Source: an uncultured Candidatus Saccharibacteria bacterium
GTDB lineage: Bacteria; Patescibacteriota; Minisyncoccia; UBA6257; 2-01-FULL-56-20
Reading direction: 5' to 3'
NCBI GenBank assembly: GCA_964360535.1
Contig: CAYHXB010000004.1
Coordinates: forward strand, 1 to 36,103
DNA: 36,103 nt
In this document: piece after piece, positions 9,912-36,103 of the stretch
Numbering within the stretch: the stretch's first letter is position 1
Layout of the letters: each line of letters opens with the position of its first letter
Notes under the pieces: model-generated
The model's input: only the letters and a program-made list of their open reading frames with translations
Told to the model about the DNA's origin: nothing
Databases searched by the model: none
Made by a program: the position numbers and the translations under genes

Positions 9912-10292
9912 ATGGAAAACCCAACAGAAATGAACTATTTCGTGGCAGTTGTCCTATCCGTTTTTCTCTCGGCGACGTTTCTTGTTCGCTGGGGGTTCTA
10001 CGATCCGCTGATGGAGATTCTTCCAAGGCTGCTTTTCGGGATACTTCCGTGGCGCTGTAGGGCTCCGGAATGGGACTGGATTTTGCCACGGGCGTTCTTC
10101 GTGATTGCTGAGTTATTATTTCTGACGTCAGTCGGCGCCGGAGTGGTTTACAGCCAAACTGGAGTACACGTCCTATTTGGCCAGTCAGCTTTATTCGTAG
10201 CTGGGCTGATTTTCAGGAACTTTGTTCGCATAGGTCTTCTGGAGGACGGCTGCGACGAAGTATTCATAAGAAAGGTTTTCAGCCCGTGGTAG
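9912..10292 (+). CDS. Hypothetical small membrane protein
   Basis: ATG at 9912 preceded by AGGTGA. Three to four hydrophobic segments. No recognisable family. Confidence 0.4.
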   Translation: MENPTEMNYFVAVVLSVFLSATFLVRWGFYDPLMEILPRLLFGILPWRCRAPEWDWILPRAFFVIAELLFLTSVGAGVVYSQTGVHVLFGQSALFVAGLIFRNFVRIGLLEDGCDEVFIRKVFSPW

Positions 10293-10323
10293 TGTGTCTG
10301 CTGTCATGCCAGCAAGTTTTAAC

Positions 10324-10365
10324 CCCTCCGCTCATTAGTTTGCAGCGGAGGGTGTTTCATTTTTC
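10324..10365 (+). terminator. Intrinsic terminator-like hairpin
   Basis: CCCTCCGC (10324-10331) pairs with GCGGAGGG (10345-10352), followed by TGTTTCATTTTT. Confidence 0.55.
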
Positions 10366-10373
10366 CAAGTAGT

Positions 10374-10393
10374 CCTGCCTGCCGGCAGGCAGG
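10374..10393. repeat. Perfect 20-nt palindrome CCTGCCTGCCGGCAGGCAGG (member of a dispersed family)
   Basis: The palindrome was read directly. Related copies lie at 7611-7643, 8922-8942, 13566-13586 and 33584-33597. Confidence 0.8.
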
Positions 10394-10415
10394 GAAAATG
10401 CGACCGCCACATTCC

Positions 10416-10445
10416 CTAGGTGCTATGATACATCATAGCACCTAG
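10416..10445. promoter_or_regulatory. 30-bp palindrome (14-bp arms, 2-nt centre), possible operator or hairpin upstream of ftsH
   Basis: CTAGGTGCTATGAT-AC-ATCATAGCACCTAG was checked base by base. It lies about 210 bp upstream of the ftsH start. Confidence 0.35.
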
Positions 10446-10656
10446 ATTCCTTACTTTAATTGAATTGAATGTATTTTTATTGATTGGCTTTGACCTTCAC
10501 GCCAAACGGCGATGGTTAAAGTATTCGTCGCAATGCGCCATTCGCCGTTATGATGTAGGGGTGGACACTATTTTTAAAAAAGTTTAAAATACATTTCACT
10601 TGCGACAATTGCATAAATTCCGTAATTGCCCAATTCGTATTTTTTAATCTAACAAA

Positions 10657-12853: not shown

Positions 12854-12925
12854 GGGCGTATAGCTCAACGGCAGAGCACGAAGCTTATACCTTCGCGGTT
12901 CTAGGTTCGAATCCTAGTGCGCCCA
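12854..12925 (+). tRNA. tRNA-Ile with genomically encoded anticodon TAT (UAU)
   Basis: Manual cloverleaf: acceptor GGGCGTA/TGCGCCC; D arm GCTC-AACGGCA-GAGC; anticodon arm CGAAG-CTTATAC-CTTCG, which places TAT at positions 34-36 (12886-12888); T arm CTAGG-TTCGAAT-CCTAG; discriminator A. No CCA is encoded. Confidence 0.85.
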
Positions 12926-12969
12926 CATTAGATTTTGTTAGTGCGGAAGCGCGTTACAAAATCTTATGT

Positions 12970-13006
12970 CCCGCAGAATGCGGGGCAGATCCCGCCATCG
13001 GCGGGG
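12970..13006. repeat. Tandem GC-rich tri-loop hairpins (CCCGCA-GAA-TGCGGG and CCCGCC-ATC-GGCGGG)
   Basis: Read directly. The architecture is the same as the elements at 12788-12829 and 4331-4373. Confidence 0.6.
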
Positions 13007-13020
13007 CTAAAATTTATAAG

Positions 13021-13554
13021 ATGAAAAATTTCAGTTTGAAATTCGTTGATATCTTAATCGGCATAGTGCTCGGCCTTGGTTTCCAATGGTGGCCATCGCT
13101 TCAATATCCATGGCAATACGCGGCTTTTATTTTTGTTTATTTTGACATTGTCGATTACTGGATTGATTATTCTCCCTCGTTAAAGAAATTCCCGCCCAAA
13201 AGGGAAATTGACGTTATGCTTGATGTCGCGATTATGTTCACGCTTTTTCTGTACATATATGCCACTCAACTTACGTCGGTTTATTTTTTGACCGTTTTCG
13301 TCATTTGGAAAATTTTGGATTACTTCTGGCTTTTGAGTTCCAGGCATGAATATCTTCCAACCGGTACGGATAAAATTTATGTTAATACATGGATGCAGTT
13401 TGACCTGATAGAAGCAGTTATTGCGGTGGTATTGATTGGAGGAGCCATTCTATTCAATATAGAATCTTTAATTATCATTATCGCGTTCATTGTTTGCAGG
13501 ATTATCGTGCGGGTATTGGCGAGTATCCGCTATAAAAAAATCCATTTTACTTAA
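13021..13554 (+). CDS. Hypothetical multi-pass membrane protein
   Basis: Five or six hydrophobic segments in an AT-rich gene. No recognisable family. Confidence 0.5.
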   Translation: MKNFSLKFVDILIGIVLGLGFQWWPSLQYPWQYAAFIFVYFDIVDYWIDYSPSLKKFPPKREIDVMLDVAIMFTLFLYIYATQLTSVYFLTVFVIWKILDYFWLLSSRHEYLPTGTDKIYVNTWMQFDLIEAVIAVVLIGGAILFNIESLIIIIAFIVCRIIVRVLASIRYKKIHFT

Positions 13555-13565
13555 AGATTCGAGTC

Positions 13566-13586
13566 CCTGCCTACCCGGCAGGCAGG
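13566..13586. repeat. CCTGCC...GGCAGGCAGG palindrome family member
   Basis: CCTGCCTACCCGGCAGGCAGG, read directly in the intergenic spacer. Confidence 0.7.
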
Positions 13587-13621
13587 CTTCCTGACCCACA
13601 TAAATTTGATACAATAAAAAT

Positions 13622-14191
13622 ATGGACAGTTTATTTTTAATACTTTTCTTTGCATCAATTGTTTGTCTTATTGTCGGGCTAGTTAAGCCATCTGCTTTTT
13701 CTCGTTTTATTAAAGGAGACATAACGAGAAAAAAGATTGGACTAATTTTCGGTAGCAGCGTCGTCATTTTCTTTATTTTATTTGGTATTTCAACGGATAT
13801 TTCAAAGAAACAAGAACAAACAGCTCAAACGTCACCGATTGCAACAAACATAGTTCTCGCTCAACATAAAGTCATTCCCGAGGATATTCATGGCACAACC
13901 AGAATAATTCATGTCATAGTTCAGACAAATATCAAAAAGGATGAGATTATCACAATAAATGATAGTTTGATTAATAGTTATTCTGGTGGATTGACCCATT
14001 TAACCATTGAATATTTTGATGACGAAGTAATTGCAGCTGATTATTTTCAGAAACTTTCTAAAGTATCAGAAGCAGAGGGTGAAAAATTGTTTAAACATTA
14101 TATAGGGACATATACAATGAATAAAACCACTGGGTATAATAAGTTAAACTTTAATGAAGAGAATAACTGGGTAACGATTAAGGAATATTAA
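13622..14191 (+). CDS. Hypothetical membrane-anchored protein
   Basis: Two N-terminal hydrophobic helices followed by a soluble domain. No recognisable family. Confidence 0.5.
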   Translation: MDSLFLILFFASIVCLIVGLVKPSAFSRFIKGDITRKKIGLIFGSSVVIFFILFGISTDISKKQEQTAQTSPIATNIVLAQHKVIPEDIHGTTRIIHVIVQTNIKKDEIITINDSLINSYSGGLTHLTIEYFDDEVIAADYFQKLSKVSEAEGEKLFKHYIGTYTMNKTTGYNKLNFNEENNWVTIKEY

Positions 14192-14304
14192 TAAATCCAG
14201 TTTCTCAATTTCCCTCATACCCTCCCCATGGACTTCAAGCAGGCCTGCCTAGCCCACCTAGTTGAGTTCGAGCTTGCGTAAAGAGCAAAAATAATACTAT
14301 CATA

Positions 14305-14313
14305 TGGTATAAT
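14305..14313 (+). promoter_or_regulatory. Extended -10 promoter element TGGTATAAT
   Basis: Matches TGnTATAAT and lies 30 nt upstream of the ATG at 14343. It sits between the inverted repeats CTTGCGTAA (14271-14279) and TTACGCAAG (14318-14326). Confidence 0.45.
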
Positions 14314-14342
14314 ATGCTTACGCAAGCATAATAAGTAAATAT

Positions 14343-14546
14343 ATGAAAAAGACTATAAATTGGACCAATATATTCAAGAAATATAAGGGTTTGTGGGTTG
14401 CATTGGATGAAGATGAAAAAACAGTAATTTCTTCTTCGGAGAATGCAAAGGAAGCGTATGAAAAAGCCATTAAAAAAGGAATTGAAGTTCCAATTATGCT
14501 TAATGTTCCATTAGAACCTAATTCATTTGTAGGAGGGTCGTTTTGA
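14343..14546 (+). CDS. Small DUF5678-like protein (possible antitoxin-like partner)
   Basis: 67 aa. The pattern YKGLWVAL-D...V.....A.EAYEKA.KKGI..P....VP matches my recollection of DUF5678-type proteins. Its stop lies 1 nt before the next ORF. Confidence 0.5.
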   Translation: MKKTINWTNIFKKYKGLWVALDEDEKTVISSSENAKEAYEKAIKKGIEVPIMLNVPLEPNSFVGGSF

Positions 14547-14547
14547 T

Positions 14548-14991
14548 TTGAAGGGTATGGTGGGTATGAAGTTTCCATATAAACAATTACCAGCGAACCC
14601 CAGCGTCGCCTTTCCTAAGCGGACAAAAATTTATAGACCGATAATTCCCGTAACAATTGAGTATAACGGGAAAAAAGTTGGTTATGAAGCCTTAATAGAT
14701 TCAGGTTCAGATTGGGATATCTTTCCCGAAGCTCTTGGTGGAATTATCGGTATAGATGTTCAAAAAGGAGCAATAGATAAATTCGGGGGAATTGGTGGTG
14801 GTCAATTCACTGCTTACTTTCATGATATAACTCTGTATATAGGAGGGTGGCCCATGAAAGTATGGTGTGGATTTTCACCGGACATACCACCAAAAGTGGC
14901 GCATGGTATTTTAGGTCAAGTCGGCTTTTTCAATAATTTCATAGTTAAGTTTGAAATGAATAAATTGGAAGTTGAAATAAAGAAGATATAA
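14548..14991 (+). CDS. Retropepsin-like (clan AA) aspartic protease domain protein
   Basis: The catalytic signature ALIDSGSD and the downstream GILGQVGFFNNF flap/dimer motif are typical of Asp_protease_2 / gag-asp_proteas families. The start is uncertain (TTG 14548, ATG 14557 or ATG 14566). Confidence 0.65.
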   Translation: MKGMVGMKFPYKQLPANPSVAFPKRTKIYRPIIPVTIEYNGKKVGYEALIDSGSDWDIFPEALGGIIGIDVQKGAIDKFGGIGGGQFTAYFHDITLYIGGWPMKVWCGFSPDIPPKVAHGILGQVGFFNNFIVKFEMNKLEVEIKKI

Positions 14992-15041
14992 TAAAAACAT
15001 GGACCAAGAAACCACAACCGTTAATTTATGTGAGTAGAATA

Positions 15042-15050
15042 TGCTATAAT
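15042..15050 (+). promoter_or_regulatory. Extended -10 promoter element TGCTATAAT
   Basis: Exact TGnTATAAT match, 60 nt upstream of the hicB-like start. Confidence 0.4.
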
Positions 15051-15109
15051 TTAAATCAATAAAACACACCATTGACGCGCATTAAATTAAGTCGTATAAA
15101 GGGTATCTA

Positions 15110-15436
15110 ATGAACTTACTCAAAGTAACAAAAGATAAGGCAATAAAAGCACTACTGGGAAAGGCGACTGTTCCAAGCGGGCTTTATGAGCTTAATAAAT
15201 ATTTCAGGCAGTATGGTCCGATTGAATTTAAGCATCATAAAGATGATGGTCTTATAATTTCTGTTAGTACCAATTTTAAATATGGAAGCATAATTGCCCA
15301 CGGACGCAACTTGGAAGAGCTTGATAAAAACGTGAGAGACGCGATTTTGACTTCATTTGAAGTTCCTTCTTCCTATAAAAAGGAAGCCGCTATAGTTAAG
15401 GAGGGGGAACGGCAGAACGCCTATGCCCTCGCTTAG
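15110..15436 (+). CDS. hicB: HicB-like antitoxin
   Basis: Size, position, and a 14-nt overlap with the hicA-like gene. The pattern G.Y.......G....HG.NLEEL..NVRDAI fits the HicB N-terminal fold. Confidence 0.55.
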   Translation: MNLLKVTKDKAIKALLGKATVPSGLYELNKYFRQYGPIEFKHHKDDGLIISVSTNFKYGSIIAHGRNLEELDKNVRDAILTSFEVPSSYKKEAAIVKEGERQNAYALA

Positions 15437-15668
15437 TGAATTACCCGGAGAAATTAAGCAGAATCGTTTTTGTAAAGCCCTTAAAAGGGTAGGTTTTGAA
15501 ATTAATAAGGTGGGCGGAGATGGTAGCCATTTTAAGGCAATATGGCCAAGAAATCAGAAATCGGTAACTATACCTTACGATCTTCCTAAGCAAACATTAA
15601 AATATATTCTTAAAGAATTAGAAGAAATAAGCGGAGTTGATTGGAATCAAATTAAAAAAGAACTATAA
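15423..15668 (+). CDS. hicA: HicA-like (YcfA family) mRNA interferase toxin
   Basis: [22 protein letters not shown]...[19 protein letters not shown] matches the YcfA/HicA pattern (GSH, vTiP, gTl..IlkqaG). Confidence 0.7.
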
Positions 15669-15675
15669 TCTTCTC

Positions 15676-16705
15676 ATGGACCTCAAACAGGAACTGGCAG
15701 AACTCAAAACCGAACTTGGCCGCCTCGGCGGCCGTCTTTGACGTCGCCGGCAAGGAAAAACTGAAGAACGAAATTGAAGCCGAAATGTCAAAGGCGGATT
15801 TTTGGTCCGACAGAAAAAACGCCGACGAGAAAATAAAGATATTCGGCGAATTGGACAGCATCACGAAGAAATATCACGAAATAGAAAACGGACTCGAAAC
15901 ACTCGAAAAAAATTTCAACGAAGATTATTTTTACGAAATAAAAAGAAAATTCCGCCAGCTGGAACTGGAAGAACTTTTCAAAGGAAAATACGACAAATCG
16001 CCGGCGGTGATCTCGGTTTATCCCGGAGCCGGAGGCGAAGACGCGGGCGACTGGTCGCTGATGCTTTTTGATATGTACAAAAATTACGCTGTAAAGCGCG
16101 GATGGAAAGTCACGGTTCTGGACGACACTCCCAACCGCAGAACTTTGGAAATAAAAGGGGATTACGCTTTCGGATATCTCAAGGGCGAATACGGAGTTCA
16201 TCGCCTAGTCCGCGTTTCGCCGTTCTCGGCAAAACAATTGAGACATACATCTTTCGCGCTCGTTGAAGTCGCTCCCGTGCTTCCCGCAGTGGACGAATCA
16301 AAAATGGAAATTCCGGAAAACGATTTGAAACTGGAATTTTCGCGCGCCGGAGGGCCGGGCGGACAGAATGTGAACAAAGTGGAAACCGCGGTAAGAATCG
16401 TACACATCCCCACGGGGCTTGCGGCAGGTTCGCGCGCCGAACGCTCGCAGGAACAAAACCGGCAAAAGGCCTTGAGCTTGCTTAAAGGCAAACTCGTGCA
16501 ACTGATGGAAAAGCACAAGGTTGAGGAACTGGCCCATCTTCACGTAAATGTGAAGCCGGAATGGGGCAGCCAGATTCGCTCTTATGTTTTGAATCCCTAT
16601 AAGCTCGTCAAAGACCACAGGACGGAGGTTGAAACAACGCAGGTTGAGGATGTTCTGGCGGGAAATCTTGACCAGTTTATAGAAGCCGAAGTGGAAAAGT
16701 TATAA
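15676..16705 (+). CDS. prfB: Peptide chain release factor 2 with programmed +1 frameshift (join 15676..15738, 15740..16705)
   Basis: ORF0 ([21 protein letters not shown]) ends at CTT TGA C (15736-15742). The +1 frame continues DVAGKEKLK... and carries SPF (RVSPFSA) and GGQ ([15 protein letters not shown]). Confidence 0.92.
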
Positions 16706-16718
16706 TTGAAACAATATC

Positions 16719-18149
16719 ATGGGTTTAAATTTTACCTGGCAAAAAGGGACTATTATTTTCCTGGTAATTCTAATTTTTTCGTCTTTTTATTTCCTTTTTA
16801 ATCTCGGAAAACTGCCGCTCATTGATTGGGACGAAGCAATTTACGCCGATGTGGCCAATAACACTTTAACTAACGGCAATTTTTTCACACTGACGAGGTT
16901 CAATGAGCCATGGTTTGAGAAGCCGCCTCTTTATATCTGGTTGGTTATGGGAAGCATAAAATTGTTCGGTGTTTCCGAATTCTCGTTGCGTCTTCCGTCG
17001 GCGCTGCTTGGCATTGTCGCGGTTGTTATTCTTTATTTTTTGACCCTAGAACTTACCGGCAATGAAATATTGTCGTTTTTTACGGCGCTAATTCTTCTTT
17101 TCTCATCACCTTTTTATCTTTTCGGGAGACAATCCAGAATGGACATTCCCGTTACTGCCGCAATTCTTTTTTCTTTACTGTGCCTTATAAAAGCGAGAAA
17201 AAATGAAAAATGGCTTATAGGTTTTGGAGTAGGGATAGGCATCGGAATACTTTTTAAAAACGTTATCGGATTTCTCGCTTTTCTACCGGCGTTCGCCTAC
17301 AGCGCGATTTATCGTGACTGGAAATGGCTTAAGAAAAAGTACACTTGGCTTGGATTTGGAATAACCGCTTTGATTATTTCCCCTTGGCATATTTATGAAA
17401 CGGCAGTTTTTGAAAGCAAGTTTTGGAATCAATATTTTGTAACTCAGGTTTTCGACAGAGGAATTACGGACATGCAGGGAATGACGACGCTCGATTATCT
17501 CGGCGGACTCTGGAATTCTTATCAGCCGTGGGCATTTGCCGTGGCAGCCCTTATTCCATTTGCGATTTTTAGCCACAAAATACTGCCTTCAATAGAAAAA
17601 TACCGGAAAGAAATGTTTTTTGGTCTTTTAAGCATGACGCTTATTTTTGCTTTTTTCGCCGTTGCCAGCACCAAAATGTTGGCTTACCTTGTTCCGATTT
17701 ATCCGTTCGCGGCAATTTTCATTTCTGCAGGCCTTTATTATTTATTTGAAAGCGCAATTTTTTCCCATCACAAAATCCGCGATTTGCTCCCTTTCTTCTT
17801 AACAGTAATTGTACTTTCGGCATTCGCGTATACATCAAGAGACGCGTTTGTAAACTTGCCTCAATATTATTTCCCTTATGTCTATGACCAAAAAACCATC
17901 GGCAATTATTTGAAGAGCCAGATGGACTCCAATCCTGTTTTTCTTTACAAATGGCAGCCAAGAGAAAGCATGGAATTCTACTCAGGCAGAACAATTAAAA
18001 ACGCCGAGTTCCTGCCTTCCGCAGATAAACCGGGATATCTAATTTTAGTCAGTAATTATGTAGATTCATTTTTGAACGAAAACCCGTCTTATAGGCAGGC
18101 CAGTAAAGCTTATGTAGGGGATTATCTAATCCTGTTGAGGTTGCAGTAA
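16719..18149 (+). CDS. Glycosyltransferase family 39 (ArnT / PMT-like) membrane protein
   Basis: About 12 TM segments, an N-terminal DWDEAIYADVA loop motif, and EKPPL. Confidence 0.75.
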   Translation: MGLNFTWQKGTIIFLVILIFSSFYFLFNLGKLPLIDWDEAIYADVANNTLTNGNFFTLTRFNEPWFEKPPLYIWLVMGSIKLFGVSEFSLRLPSALLGIVAVVILYFLTLELTGNEILSFFTALILLFSSPFYLFGRQSRMDIPVTAAILFSLLCLIKARKNEKWLIGFGVGIGIGILFKNVIGFLAFLPAFAYSAIYRDWKWLKKKYTWLGFGITALIISPWHIYETAVFESKFWNQYFVTQVFDRGITDMQGMTTLDYLGGLWNSYQPWAFAVAALIPFAIFSHKILPSIEKYRKEMFFGLLSMTLIFAFFAVASTKMLAYLVPIYPFAAIFISAGLYYLFESAIFSHHKIRDLLPFFLTVIVLSAFAYTSRDAFVNLPQYYFPYVYDQKTIGNYLKSQMDSNPVFLYKWQPRESMEFYSGRTIKNAEFLPSADKPGYLILVSNYVDSFLNENPSYRQASKAYVGDYLILLRLQ

Positions 18150-30176: not shown

Positions 30177-31193
30177 TCAGGAAACACCGGCGCGCTTTGG
30201 CCAGCGGGAACGCGAGTAAGCGTCAACTTCGCTTAATTTAAGGGGAGTGGTGACATTGCCGGTGCGGACATAAAAGTGTTCGTCGCTGTCTATTTTAAGG
30301 TAAATCGGCCTGGCGCTGGAGGCCACTTGGACGAGGCAGACATCGTTGTCGTTTACCGATTGGAATCTCAATTTAACCAAATGGCGGAATTCCGGCCCTA
30401 TCATTTTATTGAAAATCTGCGTGAAATGATTTTCAAAACCGTCGCTGTCCTTGCGGGTAAATGTTTCATAATCGTTTTTCAGCCCTATGATTTCCTGGCC
30501 GTCGTTTATCCCGATAACAAGTATCCCGCCTTTGGAATTCAAAAAAGCAGCCACGGTTTTCATGACCGCCTTTTCTATCTCGCGGCTGATTCCTTTCTGT
30601 CTTTCGTCAAAGCGCAAAGTGGATTTGAATTCAAGATGCTCGTGCTCTTCTTCAAGTATCAGCTTAAAAATATCAGGTTCTTCGTTCAGATATTTGCTTT
30701 GCGGTTCAGCGAATCTTTCTATTGCTCTTCGTTGTTCATGCGGGCGCTGGATATCTCCAAGCGTAAGCGAATTATGAGGGGCGCCGTTATCAATATGAAT
30801 AGAACCGTAATGAAGGCGTTTTCCGAGTGGTCCTGACGACAGCGTCACTGTCATGGATTTTTGGAGAGGGACTATTTTTTCCCTTTTGAAAAAAACTCCC
30901 CACCTGTGCGAAATAGTTCCAGGCAAAACCACGTAGCTTTCGTAATACCAGCGGAGAAAAGCGTAAACAGTTATGCCTAATTGAACGCCGGAAAGTAAAA
31001 GGAATTTTGCCGTCTGATAAGAAAGAATCTGTGAAAGAAACTCAAATTTTGTGTAAAGTTCGTATTTATAATTGCCCAGCTGGGCGGCTACGATGTAAGC
31101 AACGAAAGCCAGCGCTTCAATAAGGATAAGGGTGCGGATAAGGACAATCGGGCTTCGTTTGATAGTTGTTTGATTTGCCATTCGGGTTGCCAT
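30177..31193 (-). CDS. Membrane protein with a bacterial PH (bPH_2/YdbS-like) domain fused to a C-terminal AlbA_2 (Schlafen-type) domain
   Basis: Two N-terminal TM helices, then GTISHRWGVFFKREKIVPLQKSMTVTLSSGPLGKRLHYGSIHI (bPH_2-like). The C-terminal half carries EHLEFKSTL, AFLNSKGGILVIGINDGQEIIGL and FYVRTGNVTTPL, the hallmark blocks of AlbA_2. Confidence 0.65.
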   Translation of the reverse strand: MATRMANQTTIKRSPIVLIRTLILIEALAFVAYIVAAQLGNYKYELYTKFEFLSQILSYQTAKFLLLSGVQLGITVYAFLRWYYESYVVLPGTISHRWGVFFKREKIVPLQKSMTVTLSSGPLGKRLHYGSIHIDNGAPHNSLTLGDIQRPHEQRRAIERFAEPQSKYLNEEPDIFKLILEEEHEHLEFKSTLRFDERQKGISREIEKAVMKTVAAFLNSKGGILVIGINDGQEIIGLKNDYETFTRKDSDGFENHFTQIFNKMIGPEFRHLVKLRFQSVNDNDVCLVQVASSARPIYLKIDSDEHFYVRTGNVTTPLKLSEVDAYSRSRWPKRAGVS

Positions 31194-31759: not shown

Positions 31760-32209
31760 TCATTGAACCGTTACCGTACCGCCTTCGCTTGGGTTAAGGT
31801 TGTTGTGATATCCCCAAGTGCCCTGCATGTCGAAATTGAACGACCATGAAACTTTAGGAGGTATGTTGCTGCAGGAATCGAAAGCGCTTCCAACACATCC
31901 GTCTTTGACCGGATAGCCGTCATTGGAGGGATACGGGTTTGAAGCCACGCGCATATTTTTAGGAGAATAATTTCTGAAAATGACTGCGCCGCCTTTGGGT
32001 ATGGAAACCGAAGAAGGGGAGAACTCACTTCCGTTGTAATTGACTATTGTCGCGTAAATCGAGCCTATGAAAAATCCGGAGGATTGCTGGTTCGTTTCCG
32101 GCGCCATTCCGGTTTTATTTGTTTTATAATCGTCTCTGCCATAAAGGTAATATCCCGCGGCGATTACGATTGCCGCTAACAGAACCATGACCCAATCTTT
32201 TTTTGTCAT
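31760..32209 (-). CDS. Membrane-anchored secreted protein, possibly cupredoxin-like fold
   Basis: An N-terminal TM helix. The C-terminal SVSIPKGGAVIFRN...GTWGYHNNLNPSEGGTVTVQ resembles cupredoxin-like strands, but no clear copper ligands are seen. Confidence 0.35.
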   Translation of the reverse strand: MTKKDWVMVLLAAIVIAAGYYLYGRDDYKTNKTGMAPETNQQSSGFFIGSIYATIVNYNGSEFSPSSVSIPKGGAVIFRNYSPKNMRVASNPYPSNDGYPVKDGCVGSAFDSCSNIPPKVSWSFNFDMQGTWGYHNNLNPSEGGTVTVQ

Positions 32210-32449
32210 TGGATTATTTTTTTAATGTTATTTATTTTAATTTTACTCTACATGTTCATTATAGCAAATCGAATTCATAAAAGGTCTTTTATAACCGGCC
32301 TCAAGTCGTTTCTCAGATAACCGTATACGGCGGATTATATTGTATATAACAGCCGTCCGTTAACCTGACTTTTTATAATTTTAGTTATATCATAGATAAG
32401 CATTATATATGAATAATGTAATGCCGGGAATGCAAAATTTTTGTTTGGC

Positions 32450-32548
32450 CAAACAAAAAGGGCGTAGCGTTGAATTGCTACTGCCCTTGGGAGGTAGTAG
32501 AGCTTTTGCTTCACTGCCTCCCTTTGAATCCGTTGTGGCTTGCCCGCG
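32450..32548 (-). repeat. Left inverted repeat of the lipoprotein cassette (terminator-like in minus orientation; carries an extra 34-nt hairpin at 32489-32522)
   Basis: CAAACAAAAAGGGCGTAGCGTTGAATTGCTACTGCCCTT...TGAATCCGTTGTGGCTTGCCCGCG aligns with the reverse complement of 33501-33564. Confidence 0.75.
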
Positions 32549-32679
32549 ATATGGAAAAAATCTCTGCCGCCATGCCGCCAAACAGCGCCGTCTAGCGGCA
32601 AACCGACCTATTAAATCCCTTGAAAAAACCCCTTATAAAACAACGATAAATCAGCTTTATTTATAAATAATTCCTGTGT

Positions 32680-32708
32680 TTGACAAAGGCGAAAAATAAG
32701 TGTATAGT
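32680..32708 (+). promoter_or_regulatory. Sigma70-like promoter (TTGACA, 17-nt spacer, TATAGT) for the lipoprotein gene
   Basis: Read directly. It lies about 100 nt upstream of the ATG at 32812 and inside the inverted-repeat-bounded segment. Confidence 0.5.
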
Positions 32709-32811
32709 TTAACTTAAGAAGTAGAAGTTTGAAAACTGAATATTGGAGATTTTGTTGAAATTCAGTTCCGATTTTAACCCAATTTTCCGGCTCGCCGGCA
32801 AAGGAGAAATC

Positions 32812-33492
32812 ATGAAACGCATTTGTGCAGTAGCAGTGATCCTGTTGGTCGCGCTCCTTTCCGGATGCGCAACGACGGTAAAAGTACTGTCGGATATAAG
32901 CCCGGACAGGCCATATCCGCCCCAACCGTCGGTGACGGTCGAGATTGCGTCCAGGCTTGCGTCGAAAAACCCCAAAGAGTTCCCCGTGTATCTGAGTCCA
33001 GTTGTCAGGTACCGCGACACGAGCAGTTTCGTTAAGGGAGTTGCGGAGGTGTTGAAAGCAGGAAAGGGTGAAGTGGGGATTCAAATCAGTACATTCCCGA
33101 TCACCTTCGATCCGCCGAAAGCTACCGTTGAGAACGCCACCCAATTTATGGGTGACCTCAAAAACAAGCTGGACCAAGCTGGATTCCGGCGCGTCAATGA
33201 GCCATGCGAAGAATGTCTTAACTTGATCGTCGACTACGCAGACGCACCGGTCGGTTCAGCCATGATTTGCCTGTTTAGCTTAAGGGTTTTCTACATCGGC
33301 AACGAGGTGATGATAGCGCGCGGCCGTTTCGTGTCGTGGAGTTCTTCATGGATCCGGGACAAGGCAATTGCGTTTGCAGCCCAGCGAGCCACAGAGGAGC
33401 TTCTCCAGGTGTGGAACTGGAGGGTCGCGGGATGGCGGCAAAAAATGTCGGCAATCGAACCGACACAGCAACTTTCAGCAGTCGGGAAGTAA
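32812..33492 (+). CDS. Lipoprotein of unknown function (higher GC than its surroundings)
   Basis: AGGAG RBS 6 nt upstream of ATG 32812. The signal peptide MKRICAVAVILLVALLSG|C carries a lipobox. The ORF-track start at 32743 is rejected. Confidence 0.75.
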   Translation: MKRICAVAVILLVALLSGCATTVKVLSDISPDRPYPPQPSVTVEIASRLASKNPKEFPVYLSPVVRYRDTSSFVKGVAEVLKAGKGEVGIQISTFPITFDPPKATVENATQFMGDLKNKLDQAGFRRVNEPCEECLNLIVDYADAPVGSAMICLFSLRVFYIGNEVMIARGRFVSWSSSWIRDKAIAFAAQRATEELLQVWNWRVAGWRQKMSAIEPTQQLSAVGK

Positions 33493-33500
33493 AGTTTCGC

Positions 33501-33564
33501 CGCGGGCAAGCCGCGAACGGATTCAAGGGCAGTAGCAGTTTCACGCTACGGCCCTTTTTGTTTG
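33501..33564 (+). repeat. Right inverted repeat of the lipoprotein cassette; acts as an intrinsic terminator on the plus strand
   Basis: CGCGGGCAAGCCGCG hairpin, then AAGGGCAGTAGC-AGTTTCAC-GCTACGGCCCTT followed by TTTGTTTG. Confidence 0.75.
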
Positions 33565-33724
33565 AAAGTTTATGAAATTACCTGTCGGCAGGCAGGCGAG
33601 TTTGTACGAATATATGAATAACATTTTACAATGCCGCTTCCTTTCGCGTTATTCGCGGTTACTCCGAGTTATCCACATCGGGCTTCGCAAACATATGGCT
33701 TGGTTTTGCTATAATGTCGTTATA

Positions 33725-34183
33725 ATGCAAATACAAATACCTCCTCTTAAAAAATCAACGTTTTACATAATAATCGCCGCGGTGGTTTTGGTCGGGATAA
33801 TCATCGGTCTCTTAATATCAAGTTACGCTTTGTTAAAGAACAAAGTCGCTTTCTGCCAGGCGCTTGCCGCGCCGAAAAATGTGAGCTTGGCCCAGGGCCA
33901 GACGATTTCCGGGACAGTCGTTTCAATGTCCGCGGGGAATATTGTTATGAGCGTAAACGCATACGATTCGTTTAACCCTCAAGTTACGACGACCGTAGAA
34001 GTAAATATGCCAATCGGGCCTGATGACAGATTGGCGCGTTTCGCGCGCGTCAAAAATTCTTCCGTCCTTCAGCCAGCTGGTTCCGTCAGCGTCAGTGAAA
34101 TAAAAACGGGCGACTTGCTCACCATGGAAGGGTTAGCCGGGGGCGCAAAAATCATTTATCTGCCGACCATCAACAAACTATGA
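33725..34183 (+). CDS. Hypothetical membrane-anchored protein
   Basis: The ATG at 33725 (MQIQIPPLKK...) follows TGCTATAAT at 33707-33715. One TM helix. ATGA overlap with the following long ORF. The upstream part of the ORF-track call (33572-33724) contains a palindromic repeat and looks non-coding. Confidence 0.5.
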   Translation: MQIQIPPLKKSTFYIIIAAVVLVGIIIGLLISSYALLKNKVAFCQALAAPKNVSLAQGQTISGTVVSMSAGNIVMSVNAYDSFNPQVTTTVEVNMPIGPDDRLARFARVKNSSVLQPAGSVSVSEIKTGDLLTMEGLAGGAKIIYLPTINKL

Positions 34184-36103
34184 TTTTCAAAAAAGAGAAA
34201 GTGGTTGTTTTATCTCTCTTTCTGATAGTTTCTCTGCTCGGCCAGGGTCAGTTTGTTCCGAAGGCGGAAGCTGCCGTTGGTCCACTATGTTCAGGCCCGC
34301 TAGAAAGTTTTCCCATTCCAGAATTTATTAAAAGCACGGTTCGCGTAAAAAGCGTAGATTCGCGAACTTCGAAGGTTGACGTTACTTCATCCGGTTATGT
34401 GCAAAAAGCTAGATGTAAAAGTACGGTAATTGGGGGTTACAAACCAGTTGTCTACGCGGACGGCTATATATATTATGTTGCGTCGGGCCGGAAGTTTGAC
34501 GGCTCATTAGTAGGCGCAAAAAACTATAATTATAATAATGATGCTGATGCTATGCCGCCGAACTCTTCGTCCATAAATATAGCGCGAAACAGCAATATCA
34601 TTCATGTTACGCCGACAAAGTGTGTGAGTAGCGTAGATGAAGGCTTTCGGGATACCACTTCAAAAGTAGAATGCATTACTTACGGCTTGTCGGCGGACGG
34701 ACGTGTCGGAACGGCGCATTATGAGCGTGAAGAGAAGAGTGACGGATGGTGGACTGTTGTTGCGGCGATCGGACTAGCTGCGGTTGGGTTAAGTTTCGGA
34801 GTAGATTTAACGGGTATTTTAGGAGGTGTGATTGGTGAAGGAGGAGTAGCAATAGGCGCTATTGGCTTGCAGGAAATTGCCGTATCTGCAGTAACAACAT
34901 TAGGCAGTTCGGCTCTCACGTCTCTTGGCGGCGCGCCGTCGGTCGCAGGCGTCGGTTCATTGGCAATTATTGGCGCAGGAATCTCTGCTACTATCGCGAC
35001 AGCAATAAACGAAATTTCCCAAACAGCGCCGCTTGACACAGTCGAAGAATCCATAAGCGGCACAGGCGCGGCCGCCAGCGTCGGAACCTGGACCTGGTCT
35101 CCTATACCGGAGGCGCCGCCGACACCCGTATCGCCGCTGCCGAATTGTTCTTTTTTGTCTGACCCGGATTTAATAACCAAAGGCCAATCGTCGCTTCTCG
35201 TATGGGGATGTCAAAATGTTGATTCTTGCTCGATAGATAATGGAATTGGTACGGTCCCTGCAGTAAGCGGTAAAAACTTTAGTGTAAGTCCCGCTCAAAC
35301 AACAACATATAATCTCTCCTGTACCGGTCCTGGGGGAAGCGCTTCGTTTCCCGCAACTGTCAATGTTACTCCAGCTCTTCCGGACCTTACTACAGGAAAT
35401 ACGACCATAGTTCCTTCTCCCGGCGCGACTGGACAAAGCGAATCATTTTCCGCCACAGTTTCAAATATCGGCACCGGCAATGCAAACAATTCCTTCCCGA
35501 GCTTCTTCCAGATAACGAATGAAGCTAAGTCGCAAGTTGTCGCGACCACGAGCGCCACTTCAATATCGTCCCTTGCCGCGGGCGCTTCGATTACCGTCTC
35601 CGGCTCATATATATTCGGTTCTCCTGGCGCCTACAACGTCCGCGCATGTGCGAATTATACAGACATGTGGTCCGGCTCTACCATTACGGAAACCGATATG
35701 AATAACAACTGCGGCGGCGCGGGCGCGTATACAGCCGTGACAATATCTGCACCCGCCACGCCGACTTGTCAGGATACCGCTGCTAATAACTTCAATGGGG
35801 CGTTGCCATGCGTTTATGCGCCAACGCCACCTCCCGTCAACGGCGGCTGGAGCGACTGGAGCGCTCGTGCCACTGATTGCGGAAGAACCGGGACGCAGAC
35901 GCGTGCCTGCACCAATCCCGCTCCTGCGGACGGCGGAGCCGATTGTTCAGGGCCGAGTTCGCAAACTTACAGCACGTCCGCGTGTCCCGTCAACGGCGGC
36001 TGGACTGGCTGGAGCTCCTGCAGCGTGACTGCTTGCGGAAGAACCGGGACGCAGACGCGTACTTGCACCAATCCCGCTCCTGCTAACGGCGGCGCGAGTT
36101 GTT
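34180..36103 (+). CDS. Large surface protein (partial; 3' end outside the window): signal/TM, Gly/Ala-rich hydrophobic region, Ig-like and CARDB-like domains, tandem thrombospondin type-1-like repeats
   Basis: I translated frame 1 from ATG 34180 to base 36102 by hand and found no stop codon (641 codons). The ORF is not in the supplied track because it never terminates in the window. It begins MIFKKEKVVVLSLFLIVSLLGQG and ends ...NGGWSDWSARATDCGRTGTQTRACTNPAPADGGADCSGPSSQTYSTSACPVNGGWTGWSSCSVTACGRTGTQTRTCTNPAPANGGASC. Confidence 0.85.
   Translation, partial: MIFKKEKVVVLSLFLIVSLLGQGQFVPKAEAAVGPLCSGPLESFPIPEFIKSTVRVKSVDSRTSKVDVTSSGYVQKARCKSTVIGGYKPVVYADGYIYYVASGRKFDGSLVGAKNYNYNNDADAMPPNSSSINIARNSNIIHVTPTKCVSSVDEGFRDTTSKVECITYGLSADGRVGTAHYEREEKSDGWWTVVAAIGLAAVGLSFGVDLTGILGGVIGEGGVAIGAIGLQEIAVSAVTTLGSSALTSLGGAPSVAGVGSLAIIGAGISATIATAINEISQTAPLDTVEESISGTGAAASVGTWTWSPIPEAPPTPVSPLPNCSFLSDPDLITKGQSSLLVWGCQNVDSCSIDNGIGTVPAVSGKNFSVSPAQTTTYNLSCTGPGGSASFPATVNVTPALPDLTTGNTTIVPSPGATGQSESFSATVSNIGTGNANNSFPSFFQITNEAKSQVVATTSATSISSLAAGASITVSGSYIFGSPGAYNVRACANYTDMWSGSTITETDMNNNCGGAGAYTAVTISAPATPTCQDTAANNFNGALPCVYAPTPPPVNGGWSDWSARATDCGRTGTQTRACTNPAPADGGADCSGPSSQTYSTSACPVNGGWTGWSSCSVTACGRTGTQTRTCTNPAPANGGASC
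35833..36103 (+). repeat. 153-bp (51-codon) tandem repeat encoding the TSP1-like modules
   Basis: CCCGTCAACGGCGGCTGG starts at 35833 and again at 35986. TGCGGAAGAACCGGGACGCAGACGCGT...TGCACCAATCCCGCTCCTGC is repeated almost exactly. The second unit is cut by the window end. Confidence 0.9.

What the first reader, a model, noticed from the sequence alone, without database searches (positions are those of the whole stretch)
34180..36103. Unlisted long ORF encodes a surface protein ending in tandem thrombospondin type-1-like repeats
The ORF track shows only short, mostly minus-strand ORFs here. However, frame 1 is open from ATG 34180 to the window end (641 codons, checked codon by codon).

The domain order is:
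1. Signal/TM segment.
2. A cysteine-containing domain of about 150 aa.
3. A Gly/Ala-rich hydrophobic block of about 100 aa (WWTVVAAIGLAAVGLSFG...IIGAGISATIATAI).
4. An Ig-like module (CSFLSDPDLITKGQSSLLVWGC...YNLSCTGPGGS).
5. A CARDB-like module (TTGNTTIVPSPGATGQSESFSATVSNIGTGNA...YNVRACAN).
6. Two 51-aa repeats, encoded by a 153-bp DNA repeat, which read GGW(S/T)xWSx(C)xxTxCGRTGTQTRxCTNPAPAxGGAxC.

The repeats fit the TSP1/TSR signature WSxWSxCSxTCGxGxxxRxRxCxxPxPxxGGxxC. This is a module overwhelmingly associated with metazoan and apicomplexan adhesins. In a host-dependent bacterium it suggests a eukaryote-like or independently recruited adhesion module. More repeats probably follow beyond the window.
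Basis: partly seen in the sequence, partly recalled or inferred. Interest (0 to 1): 0.75.

Follow-up and report, generated by a model that had tools for sequence, protein, structure and literature searches.

The report
Thrombospondin-repeat surface protein in groundwater bacterium
A gene cut off by the end of a small groundwater bacterium's contig encodes a modular cell-surface protein carrying genuine thrombospondin type 1 repeats, an "animal" adhesion module that my scan also found in at least 60 other mostly cell-dependent or predatory bacterial and archaeal genomes.

Summary
Frame 1 is open from ATG 34180 to the contig end (641 codons), and the window is a whole 36,103-bp contig.

Supported parts:
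- CARDB: Pfam 40.4 bits (cut-off 22.7).
- TSP_1: Pfam 27.9 bits (cut-off 21.6). The repeat pair hits solved UNC5B and thrombospondin-1 repeats at E 6e-15 and 2e-14. The model of the complete repeat matches only TSR structures.
- Ig-like module: pLDDT about 95, PKD/Ig fold.

The contig is plainly bacterial and CPR-like. A chimeric join is very unlikely.

New findings:
- One peptide pattern finds this TSR subtype in 65 prokaryotic genome loci. About half are Patescibacteria; others are DPANN, Bdellovibrionota, Rickettsiales and Omnitrophota.
- Repeat 1 belongs to a variant, seen here only in prokaryotes, that has lost Cys1 and Cys5 together.
- The N-terminal half is a rare uncharacterised module (17 clusters in 1.84 billion proteins). 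Its relatives end in a short Φ-x-E-Φ tail.

Best reading: a membrane-held adhesin presenting TSRs outward for cell-to-cell attachment. Function, ligand, true C-terminus and direction of inter-domain transfer are untested.

The parts
34180..36103 (+). Whole ORF, 641 codons, open to the contig end. The 3' end and the stop codon are missing.
   Evidence: translation without a stop; the window is a whole 36,103-bp contig. The start ATG overlaps the stop of the upstream gene (ATGA).
34180..34272 (+). Sec-type signal peptide, aa 1-31: MIFKKEKVVVLSLFLIVSLLGQGQFVPKAEA|AV.
   Evidence: Hydropathy. All 18 relatives align with the same N-terminal leader ending in A-x-A/Q. The cleavage site is inferred.
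34273..34554 (+). Variable N-terminal domain, aa 32-125, beta-rich. It is shorter than the roughly 300-aa equivalent in relatives.
   Evidence: Low model confidence. No Pfam, NCBIfam or PDB match.
34555..34746 (+). Conserved beta-sheet module, aa 126-189: ...RNSNII..TPTKC148...C165ITYGLSADGRVGTAHY181...GW190.
   Evidence: This is the only part of the N-terminal half with relatives: 17 clusters among 1.84 billion representatives. Invariant C148, C165, S171, D173, G177, Y181, G189. AF2 pLDDT 82-87.
34747..35016 (+). Hydrophobic Gly/Ala/Val/Ile-rich block, aa 190-279. Predicted membrane-embedded helices (probable anchor).
   Evidence: Kyte-Doolittle above 1.5 over 189-230 and 252-279. AF2 helices at 191-205, 210-216 and 228-245. 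Present in all relatives with variable length, about 30-100 aa. Membrane insertion is inferred.
35026..35103 (+). Conserved post-block segment, aa 283-308: PLDTVEES...VGTW304TW306SP.
   Evidence: Family consensus P..LGTVE.SN.LGVG.WTWS; W304 and W306 are invariant.
35146..35370 (+). Ig-like (PKD-type) beta-sandwich module, aa 323-397.
   Evidence: AF2 pLDDT about 95. Foldseek top hits are the PKD domain of an archaeal S-layer protein (1l0q) and titin/Dscam Ig domains. 56-71% identical to modules in P0001-P0003 and P0007. No Pfam family reaches threshold.
35380..35712 (+). CARDB domain, aa 401-511.
   Evidence: Pfam PF07705, E 3.7e-10, 40.4 bits against a cut-off of 22.7. Close relatives in P0008 and in L008, where it also precedes a TSR.
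35767..35817 (+). Small two-Cys module CQDTAANNFNGALPCVY, aa 530-546.
Evidence: Repeated four or more times in the L074 protein; also present in the L076 protein and in P0135.
35836..35985 (+). TSR 1, aa 553-602, complete. Four-Cys variant: C1 replaced by Arg/Ala and C5 replaced by Tyr.
   Evidence: PDB sequence hits UNC5B E 6e-15 and TSP-1 E 1.8e-14. AF2 pLDDT about 80. Foldseek finds only TSR structures, probability 0.99. Cys pattern rCCCyC. Lies in an all-CPR clade.
35989..36102 (+). TSR 2, aa 604-641, truncated after the fourth Cys by the contig end. Canonical C1-C4 are present.
   Evidence: Best Pfam TSP_1 stretch is 607-641. 80-85% identical to TSRs of L048, L038, L012 and P0030. The DNA core is 88% identical to TSR 1.
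33572..34183 (+). Upstream gene, 203 aa as listed (a start at Met52 is likely). Small protein with one N-terminal TM helix. Its stop overlaps the ORF's start, so the two are probably co-transcribed.
   Evidence: No family match. The pair (this gene plus the start of the ORF) is found together on three other contigs.
32743..33492 (+). Upstream lipoprotein gene (MKRICAVAVILLVALLSGC lipobox). Belongs to the same-strand group of envelope genes.
   Evidence: No family match. Absent from the strain variant L001, so it is not obligatorily linked.

Best explanation
The ORF is the 5' two thirds or less of a gene for a modular cell-surface protein of an ultra-small groundwater bacterium, very probably Patescibacteria/CPR.

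Shown:
- The gene is bacterial.
- The module order is: signal peptide, N-domain, conserved beta module, hydrophobic block, conserved W-x-W segment, Ig-like, CARDB, small Cys module, then at least two thrombospondin type 1 repeats.
- The TSRs are true homologues of animal TSRs.
- The same TSR subtype is shuffled among many surface proteins of CPR, DPANN and predatory or intracellular bacteria.

Inferred mechanism:
- The protein is exported by Sec and its leader is cut.
- The 90-aa hydrophobic Gly/Ala block inserts into the cell's own membrane with an even number of passes and holds the protein there.
- The Ig-like and CARDB modules form a stalk.
- The disulfide-bonded TSRs are displayed at a distance from the cell. 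There, like animal and apicomplexan TSRs, they bind a surface polymer (probably an anionic glycan) or a protein on the partner cell, helping the bacterium attach.

The gene is probably a mosaic assembled by module shuffling or horizontal transfer.
For: Gene and modules:
- Open frame of 641 codons.
- Pfam CARDB and TSP_1 both above their gathering scores.
- The TSR pair matches solved UNC5B, thrombospondin-1 and properdin repeats at E 6e-15 to 6e-7. Even the inter-repeat linker CPVNGGW is conserved.
- The AF2 model of repeat 1 (pLDDT about 80) retrieves only TSR structures.
- Ig-like module: pLDDT about 95, PKD/Ig fold.

Bacterial context: SecY, S2, FtsH, RF, FtsEX, phosphoketolase, acetate kinase and a type IV pilus cluster. 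The samples are the 0.1-um fraction of Hainich groundwater.

Not a chimera:
- The CARDB-to-TSR cassette recurs in a 2281-aa protein on a 200-kb Saccharibacteria contig.
- TSR plus Ig-like plus the CQD mini-repeat recur in L074, L075 and L076.
- TSRs lie inside a complete 696-kb Paceibacterota chromosome, L067.
- The window's repeats are nearest to prokaryotic units: 0.73 and 0.85, against 0.67 and 0.74 for the best eukaryotic units.

Surface location:
- Other bacterial TSR proteins carry LPKTG or LPTAG sortase signals next to a sortase gene, or C-terminal TM anchors.
- Co-occurring domains are all extracellular: fn3, VWA, dockerin, CARDB, lectins.

Fold constraint: C1 and C5 are lost together in 15 prokaryotic units plus repeat 1. 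These two form one disulfide in the thrombospondin-1 crystal structure (my own knowledge of PDB 1LSL, Tan et al. 2002).

Mosaic composition: GC3 is 0.31 (Ig), 0.56 (CARDB) and 0.65 (TSR), against 0.51 +/- 0.08 for genes of the contig.
Against: - No experiment or expression data exists. Neither binding nor the ligand has been tested.
- The C-terminus is missing, so the real anchor (sortase signal, TM helix, or the Phi-x-E-Phi tail seen in 14 of 18 relatives) is unknown. It could make the internal hydrophobic block something other than the anchor.
- The hydrophobic block is modelled with low confidence beyond aa 205. Its number of membrane passes is not established.
- The organism's taxonomy is inferred, not measured. 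Its genome was not in the representative genome set.
- Repeat 2 is truncated and poorly modelled.
- The census of prokaryotic TSRs used a pattern derived from CPR sequences, so the taxonomic bias towards CPR is partly built in.
Confidence: 0.72

Rival explanations
1. Assembly chimera: the last 300 bases or so are eukaryotic (metazoan or protist) DNA joined by mistake to a bacterial contig, and the long ORF is an accident of that join.
For: - The TSRs sit at the very end of the contig.
- GC rises to 0.66 in the TSR part.
- Several of the best database hits to the pair are eukaryotic: MERC transcripts at 57-64%, Owenia, Branchiostoma, Nematostella.
Against: - The frame runs unbroken from CARDB through a Cys mini-module into the TSRs.
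- The same CARDB-to-TSR junction exists in a 200-kb Saccharibacteria contig. The same mini-module-plus-TSR combination exists in L074 and L076; L075 carries the TSR pair with Ig-like modules.
- Repeat 1 is of the C1/C5-less type, seen only in prokaryotic units. It falls in an all-CPR clade.
- A GC3 of 0.65 is within the range of other genes on the contig, 0.33-0.66.
- Contigs typically break inside tandem repeats.
Confidence: 0.03
2. The protein is not an attachment factor but a structural or enzymatic envelope component. Examples are a cell-wall or S-layer associated scaffold, or a binder of environmental polymers or minerals. In that case the TSRs serve as rigid spacers or bind the cell's own envelope.
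For: - CARDB and PKD/Ig modules are common in S-layer and cell-envelope proteins; the top fold hit is an archaeal S-layer PKD domain.
- The flanking genes encode a lipoprotein and a small membrane protein.
- TSRs in prokaryotes also occur with dockerin, lectin and glycan-related domains.
Against: - No catalytic domain was detected.
- The TSR subtype is concentrated in lineages that live on or in other cells.
- In five loci (L007, L054, L008, L048, L116) a TSR gene lies directly upstream of pilB. Type IV pili are an established host-attachment organelle in Saccharibacteria (title and abstract of PMC12206443, listed).
Confidence: 0.17
3. The internal hydrophobic Gly/Ala block is not the protein's own membrane anchor. 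Instead it is a segment that inserts into the partner cell's membrane (fusion-loop or pore-like), with the TSR/Ig/CARDB part providing targeting. The protein would itself be held on the cell by an unseen C-terminal signal.
For: - The block lies between two strongly conserved segments with invariant Cys and Trp residues, and varies greatly in length.
- 14 of 18 relatives have a separate conserved C-terminal tail that could be the real sorting signal.
- The block is glycine-rich, with GxxxG-type spacing.
Against: - This is purely inferential, with no similarity to any known pore-former or fusion protein.
- Simple hydrophobic helices of this kind are most often plain anchors.
- The family is rare, only 17 clusters.
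Confidence: 0.08

Closest known systems
Thrombospondin type 1 repeat (TSR; Pfam PF00090), as in thrombospondin-1 TSR2-3 (PDB 1LSL, 3R6B), the UNC5 netrin receptors (6OOL, 5FTT) and properdin
   Same: - WxxW motif.
- CG-x-G-x-x-x-R-x-C-T-N-P-x-P-x-x-G-G-x-x-C core.
- Inter-repeat linker CP(V/I)NGGW.
- Length of about 50 aa.
- Elongated three-strand fold in the model.
- Sequence E-values down to 6e-15 and up to 74% identity to amphioxus units.
   Different: - It is encoded in a bacterial gene, fused to CARDB and PKD-like modules.
- It has two Trp rather than up to three.
- Repeat 2 has one extra residue between C1 and C2 (CSVTACG instead of CSVTCG).
- Repeat 1 lacks the C1-C5 disulfide, with Tyr in place of C5.
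- The eukaryotic modifying enzymes (POFUT2, DPY19) are not expected in this organism (my own knowledge).
Apicomplexan TSR adhesins (TRAP/MIC2, circumsporozoite protein)
   Same: A cell-dependent organism displays TSRs on its surface on a membrane-held stalk. The proposed role in attachment to another cell is analogous (PMC3417536).
   Different: - There is no vWA domain here, no cytoplasmic tail linking to a gliding motor, and a prokaryotic export route.
- The circumsporozoite aTSR was only a weak structural match (rank 41, E 1.5).
Other prokaryotic TSR proteins found here (P0030 and P0046 with LPXTG; L074, L075 and L076 with a C-terminal TM anchor; L008 of Saccharibacteria)
   Same: - TSR units 70-85% identical, with the same CPR-type partner modules: Ig-like 'SCSIDNGIG', CARDB/DUF11-like and the CQD mini-repeat.
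- L008 has the same CARDB-to-TSR junction.
   Different: The window protein has a different N-terminal half, namely the rare conserved beta module plus an internal hydrophobic block. None of those proteins has it. The N-module family members found (P0007, P0133-P0149) have no TSR.
Bacterial thrombospondin type 3 repeats (OmpA-family proteins, Omnitrophota giant proteins)
   Same: Both carry a 'thrombospondin' name and an extracellular location. They are reported in predatory bacteria (bioRxiv 10.1101/2023.11.21.568195).
   Different: This is an unrelated module: type 3 repeats are short calcium-binding Asp-rich loops, not the WxxW/Cys-knot-like type 1 repeat. Only 2 of 64 prokaryotic TSR proteins also had TSP_3.

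Membership tests
TSP_1 / thrombospondin type 1 repeat (PF00090) | Profile HMM score above Pfam's gathering threshold | tested here: met
   27.9 bits against 21.6, E 2.8e-6; two stretches at the permissive threshold, best 607-641. TSP1_spondin stays below its cut-off (15.2 against 41).
TSP_1 / thrombospondin type 1 repeat (PF00090) | Significant sequence similarity to TSRs with solved structures | tested here: met
   UNC5B E 6.2e-15, TSP-1 E 1.8e-14 and 6.8e-12, properdin E 6e-7, C8 beta E 4e-6. The alignments span both repeats.
TSP_1 / thrombospondin type 1 repeat (PF00090) | WxxW tryptophan motif on strand A and conserved Arg on strand B (the Trp-Arg ladder) | tested here: met
   WSDWS and WTGWS are present. 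The Arg of G-R-T-G-T-Q-T-R aligns with the R-x-R of UNC5B and TSP-1. W608, W611 and R627 are nearly invariant or invariant across 64 prokaryotic proteins. The stacking geometry itself was not measured.
TSP_1 / thrombospondin type 1 repeat (PF00090) | Six conserved cysteines forming three disulfides | tested here: inconclusive
   Repeat 2 has C1-C4 and is then cut by the contig end. Repeat 1 has only four (C2, C3, C4, C6), with C1 replaced by R/A and C5 by Y. The joint loss fits the C1-C5 pairing of TSP-1, so repeat 1 is a two-disulfide variant rather than a canonical member. The disulfides were not determined.
TSP_1 / thrombospondin type 1 repeat (PF00090) | Elongated three-stranded fold | tested here: met
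   AF2 pLDDT is about 80 for repeat 1. The 41 best Foldseek PDB hits are all TSR-containing structures, at probability up to 0.99, although E is only about 7e-3 because the domain is small.
TSP_1 / thrombospondin type 1 repeat (PF00090) | C-mannosylation of WxxW and O-fucosylation of Cxx(S/T)CG | not testable with these tools
   Sequence only. CSVTACG in repeat 2 departs from the CxxS/TCG spacing by one residue. A PMT-family glycosyltransferase lies next to a TSR gene in one other genome only.
CARDB (PF07705) | Profile HMM score above the gathering threshold over most of the model | tested here: met
   40.4 bits against 22.7; model positions 2-98 of 101; aa 401-511.
Ig-like / PKD-type beta sandwich | Seven-strand beta-sandwich fold; membership of a curated sequence family | tested here: inconclusive
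   The fold criterion is met: pLDDT about 95, with the top Foldseek hit the 1l0q PKD domain followed by titin/Dscam Ig domains. No Pfam or NCBIfam family reaches threshold.
Sortase-anchored LPXTG surface proteins | C-terminal LPXTG motif, hydrophobic helix and basic tail | not testable with these tools
   The C-terminus lies beyond the contig end. Relatives with TSRs do have it: P0030 LPKTG with a sortase gene nearby, and P0046 LPTAG.
Eukaryote-derived ('eukaryotic-like') domain acquired by horizontal transfer | Prokaryotic sequences nested within eukaryotic diversity in a phylogeny | tested here: inconclusive
   A crude NJ tree of 140 units gives no reciprocal monophyly. 18 of 30 eukaryotic units have a prokaryotic nearest neighbour, and mean identity is P-P 0.61, P-E 0.53 and E-E 0.52. 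The domain is too short and the sampling too biased to give a direction.

The most novel reading that the evidence does not exclude
Thrombospondin type 1 repeats are not an essentially animal/apicomplexan invention occasionally borrowed by bacteria. Instead they would be a widespread, actively shuffled attachment module of prokaryotes that live on other cells (CPR/Patescibacteria, DPANN archaea, Bdellovibrionota, Rickettsiales, Omnitrophota). This pool would include a prokaryote-specific two-disulfide variant. The window's protein would be one member that combines the module with a previously undescribed membrane-insertion module and, probably, a new short C-terminal sorting tail (Phi-x-E-Phi). 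On this reading the prokaryotic pool could be the source of the eukaryotic TSR, or a long-standing exchange partner of it.
Probability: 0.3. Interest if true: 0.8.

Novelty: new variant of a known kind. Interest (0 to 1): 0.6.

Why it matters
How ultra-small episymbiotic bacteria recognise and hold on to their host cells is largely unknown. Type IV pili are the only well-supported organelle.

A TSR is a module with well-studied ligand-binding behaviour in animals and malaria parasites. Finding it displayed on CPR surface proteins, and recurring across CPR, DPANN and predatory bacteria, gives a concrete and testable candidate for the attachment step.

It also challenges the textbook view of the TSR as an animal-lineage domain, and so reopens the question of where the domain came from.

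The two by-products are further handles on CPR envelope biology:
- a rare conserved module with an internal hydrophobic block;
- a short conserved C-terminal tail on many CPR surface proteins.

If the finding were only one more bacterial protein with a catalogued Pfam domain, it would be of modest interest. The breadth of the distribution is what raises it.

Tried and rejected
1. Extending the ORF. None of these gave sequence beyond 36103:
   - look-ups of the neighbouring gene, in two start variants, and of the lipoprotein gene;
   - the metagenome scan;
   - the genome scan.
   The window's genome is not in the representative set.
2. Word-indexed search with the N-terminal 322 aa found nothing. 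Only the exhaustive phmmer search found relatives.
3. NCBIfam has no family for the protein, its N-module relatives or the C-terminal tail. The PDB has nothing for aa 1-547 by sequence.
4. A link between TSR genes and PMT-family glycosyltransferases, suggested by L006, was rejected. It occurs in one genome only, since L006 and L041 are the same contig.
5. A general link to type IV pilus genes holds only for a subset: 7 of about 150 loci, including 5 with the TSR gene directly upstream of pilB. In the window itself, minus-strand genes and about 4.8 kb separate the pilin genes from the ORF, so I do not claim a functional link there.
6. Cluster names gave no taxonomy.
7. The literature gave no paper on type 1 repeats in CPR, DPANN or Bdellovibrio. 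The one promising hit concerns type 3 repeats.
8. The full-length AF2 model is uninformative for the CARDB and TSR parts, because the alignment used lacked them.
9. The phylogeny of TSR units is too weak to give a direction of transfer.


Full report
**1. The observation**

Translating window 34180-36103 in frame 1 gives 641 sense codons and no stop. For a sequence of this composition, my own estimate of the chance of this is about (61/64)^641, or roughly 4e-14.

The ORF track lacked it because ORFs that run off the end of the source are not listed. An exact look-up of housekeeping proteins shows that the window is a complete NCBI contig of 36,103 bp. The ORF is therefore cut by the end of an assembly contig, not by the choice of window.

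The ATG at 34180 overlaps the stop of the upstream gene (ATGA). It opens a typical Sec leader (KKEK, hydrophobic core, AEA|AV), which all relatives share.

**2. The modules**

Pfam gives:
- CARDB at aa 401-511: 40.4 bits, cut-off 22.7.
- TSP_1 with two stretches: 27.9 bits, cut-off 21.6.
- TSP1_spondin stays below its cut-off.

NCBIfam gives nothing.

Evidence for the TSRs:
- The 95-aa repeat pair matches solved TSRs by sequence alone: UNC5B (E 6e-15), thrombospondin-1 TSR2-3 (E 1.8e-14 and 7e-12), properdin and C8.
- The alignment covers both repeats and even the linker (CPVNGGW here, CPINGGW in TSP-1, CPVDGAW in UNC5B).
- An AF2 model built on 89 sequences gives pLDDT of about 80 for the complete repeat 1 and below 50 for the truncated repeat 2.
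- Foldseek against the PDB returns only TSR-containing structures in the first 41 ranks (UNC5D, TSP-1, ADAMTS13, BAI1, properdin, complement C6-C9), at probability up to 0.99.

Evidence for the other modules:
- A full-length model is confident for the Ig-like module (aa 320-400, pLDDT about 95). Its best fold matches are the PKD domain of an archaeal S-layer protein and titin/Dscam Ig domains.
- The same model is confident for aa 128-205, a beta-sheet module running into a hydrophobic helix (pLDDT 82-87).
- The hydrophobic Gly/Ala block is real, with Kyte-Doolittle windows above 1.5 over 189-230 and 252-279.

The DNA repeat is real but irregular:
- A 31-nt flank repeats at a spacing of 153 nt (90% identity).
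- A 76-nt core repeats at a spacing of 156 nt (88% identity).
- Tandem Repeats Finder does not report the array.

It is a two-Cys motif, CQDTAANNFNGALPCVY (aa 530-546), which recurs as a tandem mini-repeat in relatives.

**3. The genomic setting**

The contig encodes:
- SecY, MnmA, ribosomal protein S2, FtsH, a release factor and FtsEX;
- phosphoketolase and acetate kinase;
- a restriction-modification pair;
- a PMT_2 glycosyltransferase;
- a type IV pilus cluster: PilB and PilC homologues (Pfam T2SSE, T2SSF), two N_methyl pilins and an LVIVD protein.

The two genes just upstream of the ORF encode a lipoprotein and a small single-pass membrane protein.

Identical copies of the upstream gene, plus the first 222-268 codons of the ORF, occur on three short contigs. 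They come from the 0.1-um filter fraction of Hainich groundwater well H51 and from a Logan assembly.

All of this fits an ultra-small, fermentative Patescibacteria/CPR organism. The taxonomy is not directly established, however.

**4. Is the contig end a chimera? No.**

(a) The frame is continuous from CPR-type modules into the TSRs.

(b) The same CARDB-to-TSR junction occurs in a 2281-aa protein on a 200-kb Saccharibacteria contig (L008).

(c) Proteins of 782-1038 aa on contigs of 77, 31 and 6 kb (L074, L075, L076) combine 2-3 TSRs of the same subtype with Ig-like modules, a CARDB/DUF11-like domain and a C-terminal membrane anchor. L074 and L076 also carry the CQD mini-repeat. L076 comes from the same H51 sample.

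(d) P0030 is a 153-aa protein whose single TSR is 87% identical to repeat 2. It continues into a Pro/Thr stalk, LPKTG and a hydrophobic tail. It sits among pilus genes, ligA and a sortase gene.

(e) One TSR protein lies within a complete 696-kb Paceibacterota chromosome (L067).

(f) GC3 of the TSR part (0.65) is high but within the range for the contig's genes, 0.33-0.66.

Contigs commonly end inside tandem repeats, which would explain the break.

**5. TSRs in prokaryotes**

A scan of one genome per species (185,579 species) with a single peptide pattern, [QK]TR[TAS]CTNPA, gave 65 confirmed loci. By record title they are:

| Group | Loci |
|---|---|
| Patescibacteria (Saccharibacteria, Nomura-, Moran-, Paceibacterota, Yanofsky-, Kaiser-, Levy-, Gracilibacteria) | 33 |
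| 'Gammaproteobacteria'/Pseudomonadota MAGs | 9 |
| Rickettsiales | 5 |
| Bdellovibrionota | 4 |
| DPANN archaea | 3 |
| Omnitrophota | 2 |
| Others (Myxococcales, Planctomycetales, Thermodesulfovibrionia and more) | remainder |

Of 64 ORFs scanned, 54 reach Pfam TSP_1. Partner domains are all extracellular: CARDB, fn3, InlB-B-like, dockerin, VWA, lectins and PKD. Two ORFs have a pilin N_methyl leader. Proteins carry 1-7 units.

Caveats:
- The pattern was derived from CPR sequences, so the share of CPR is inflated.
- Some short MAG contigs could be mis-binned.

Literature. In the papers I could search, none links type 1 repeats to Patescibacteria, DPANN or Bdellovibrio. The Omnitrophota giant-gene preprint concerns type 3 repeats. 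A broad review treats TSP1 as an animal domain passed to apicomplexans (PMC3417536). From memory, not tested here, public domain databases do list some bacterial TSP_1 matches. The precomputed Pfam labels on P0046 and others show that such hits are catalogued automatically.

**6. A prokaryotic TSR variant**

Aligning 141 units to a TSR profile shows six Cys columns. The canonical CCCCCC pattern occurs in 75 prokaryotic and 23 eukaryotic units.

A second pattern has C1 replaced by K/Q/P/R/A and C5 replaced by Tyr, always together. It occurs in 15 prokaryotic units plus the window's repeat 1, and in none of the 30 eukaryotic units.

In the thrombospondin-1 crystal structure the disulfides are C1-C5, C2-C6 and C3-C4 (my own knowledge of PDB 1LSL, Tan et al. 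2002). The joint loss of exactly that pair argues that the prokaryotic repeats share the same disulfide topology. It also argues that repeat 1 is a two-disulfide variant.

In a neighbour-joining tree:
- Repeat 1 sits in a clade of ten units. Where the source is identified these are Patescibacteria (L015, L051) or CPR-type surface proteins (L074, L076); L010 is titled only 'uncultured bacterium'.
- Repeat 2 sits with canonical units of L009, P0030, L022 and L058.

The two repeats therefore belong to different subtypes. Their DNA cores are nevertheless 88% identical, which suggests local homogenisation.

**7. Relation to eukaryotic TSRs**

| Unit | Best prokaryotic identity | Best eukaryotic identity (amphioxus) |
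|---|---|---|
| Repeat 1 | 0.73 | 0.67 |
| Repeat 2 | 0.85 | 0.74 |

Mean identities are P-P 0.61, P-E 0.53 and E-E 0.52. The groups are not reciprocally monophyletic.

This closeness across domains of life points to horizontal transfer rather than ancient vertical descent. The data cannot say in which direction, or how often.

**8. The N-terminal half**

A word-indexed search found nothing. An exhaustive phmmer search of 1.84 billion representatives found only 17 clusters, all matching aa 123-320.

The alignment defines a module with three parts:
- ...RPRNSDI..TQP.C...C.TYGLSADGR.G.A.Y...GW
- then a hydrophobic Gly/Ala block of very variable length, about 30-100 aa
- then P..LGTVE.SN.LGVG.WTWS

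Invariant residues are C148, C165, S171, D173, G177, Y181, G189, W304 and W306.

Relatives have a longer N-domain of about 300 aa and different C-terminal modules, and none has a TSR. The window's gene is thus a new combination of two module sets. The sharp GC3 steps between modules (0.31, 0.56, 0.65) agree with this.

**9. Mechanism**

Shown:
- an export signal;
- extracellular-type, disulfide-rich modules;
- homology of the terminal repeats to adhesive TSRs;
- anchoring signals on other bacterial TSR proteins.

Inferred:
- The hydrophobic block forms an even number of membrane passes that hold the protein in the producer's membrane.
- Ig-like and CARDB modules act as a stalk.
- The TSRs bind a surface polymer or protein on a partner cell.

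Alternatives are an envelope-structural role, or a hydrophobic block that targets the partner's membrane with the real anchor at the missing C-terminus. Neither can be excluded.

In five other loci (L007, L054, L008, L048, L116) a TSR gene lies directly upstream of pilB. In the window, the pilus cluster is separated from the ORF by about 4.8 kb and by minus-strand genes. I treat this as a hint only.

**10. Verdict**

It is not categorically new, because the domain is known and bacterial matches are catalogued. Four things do appear undescribed:
- the deployment of TSRs across episymbiotic and predatory prokaryotes;
- the two-disulfide variant;
- the rare N-terminal module;
- the recurrent C-terminal tail.

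Together these give testable leads on how ultra-small bacteria attach to hosts.

Noticed in passing
Relatives P0001-P0003, P0007, P0008, P0133-P0149; loci L024 (three consecutive genes at 993, 3934, 5709), L035, L036, L039, L042, L043, L046, L063, L069, L011: Many CPR surface proteins end, with no following TM helix, in a short conserved tail of the form Phi-x-[KRQ]-E-Phi plus 0-3 residues (...NWKEVAP, ...IQEVAPQ, ...FQEF, ...YKEF, ...KEIIPR). A related ...KPIFIE[DGN] tail occurs in L008, L048 and L054. 14 of 18 members of the N-module family have the tail, against about 0.8% expected per position. No NCBIfam family covers it. It could be an undescribed C-terminal sorting or anchoring signal, and it predicts how the window's protein may end.
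   Followed up: partly
L007 6001-8213, L054 7443-10117, L008 1938-10615, L048 7371-10125, L116 about 10001-12306; also L004 and L046: In five loci a TSR-bearing gene lies directly upstream of pilB-pilC. In L048 and L054 it encodes a protein of about 300 aa with GWAWSSNIGWISF repeats, one TSR and a KPIFIE tail. This is possibly a pilus-associated TSR protein. In two further loci the pilus genes lie within 8 kb.
   Followed up: partly
L006 6001-8960 (same contig as L041; NCBI CAZBFU010000001.1): A 107-aa TSR protein with an LPTAG signal is followed 8 nt later by a PMT/PMT_4TMC protein O-mannosyltransferase-family gene and a GT87-like GT-C gene. This recalls the glycosylation of eukaryotic TSRs. 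The arrangement was found in this one genome only.
   Followed up: yes
window 35767-35817; L074 9632-11980; L076 2684-5164; P0135: A 17-aa two-Cys mini-module, C-[QRE]-D-x-x-A-x-N-[FY]-x-G-x-L-P-C-x-Y, occurs once in the window's protein and as 2-5 tandem copies in related CPR surface proteins. No family was assigned to it.
   Followed up: no
window 12854-12926: A tRNA-Ile with anticodon TAT (UAU). From my own knowledge, most bacteria instead read AUA with a lysidine-modified CAU tRNA. This may indicate the absence of TilS in this lineage.
   Followed up: no
window 4475-6102: A type II restriction-modification pair: an N6_N4 DNA methylase plus an EcoO109I-family endonuclease. The endonuclease gene has a markedly lower GC (0.35, GC3 0.33) than its neighbours, suggesting recent acquisition.
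   Followed up: no
window 30177-31193 (-): A 338-aa protein combining a bacterial PH domain (bPH_2) with a Schlafen AlbA_2 domain. It lies between the pilus cluster and the surface-protein genes, next to three small minus-strand ORFs with no family match.
   Followed up: no
L001 1-1975 compared with window 32000-33518: A strain variant in a Logan assembly is 100% identical to the window from about 33,518 onward (the 203-aa gene and the start of the ORF). Upstream it carries a SPASM-domain gene and a methyltransferase gene instead of the lipoprotein gene. This marks a recombination breakpoint just upstream of the operon.
   Followed up: partly
window 13000-16000: A low-GC stretch (0.35-0.38, against about 0.46 elsewhere) holding several ORFs (13021-13554, 13622-14191, 14548-14991). 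The first two have no Pfam match; the third was not scanned.
   Followed up: no
window 16719-18149: A PMT_2/PMT-family GT-C glycosyltransferase (476 aa) is followed by an 875-aa protein with an LCAT-like lipase domain. It is 16 kb from the TSR gene, so no link is claimed.
   Followed up: partly
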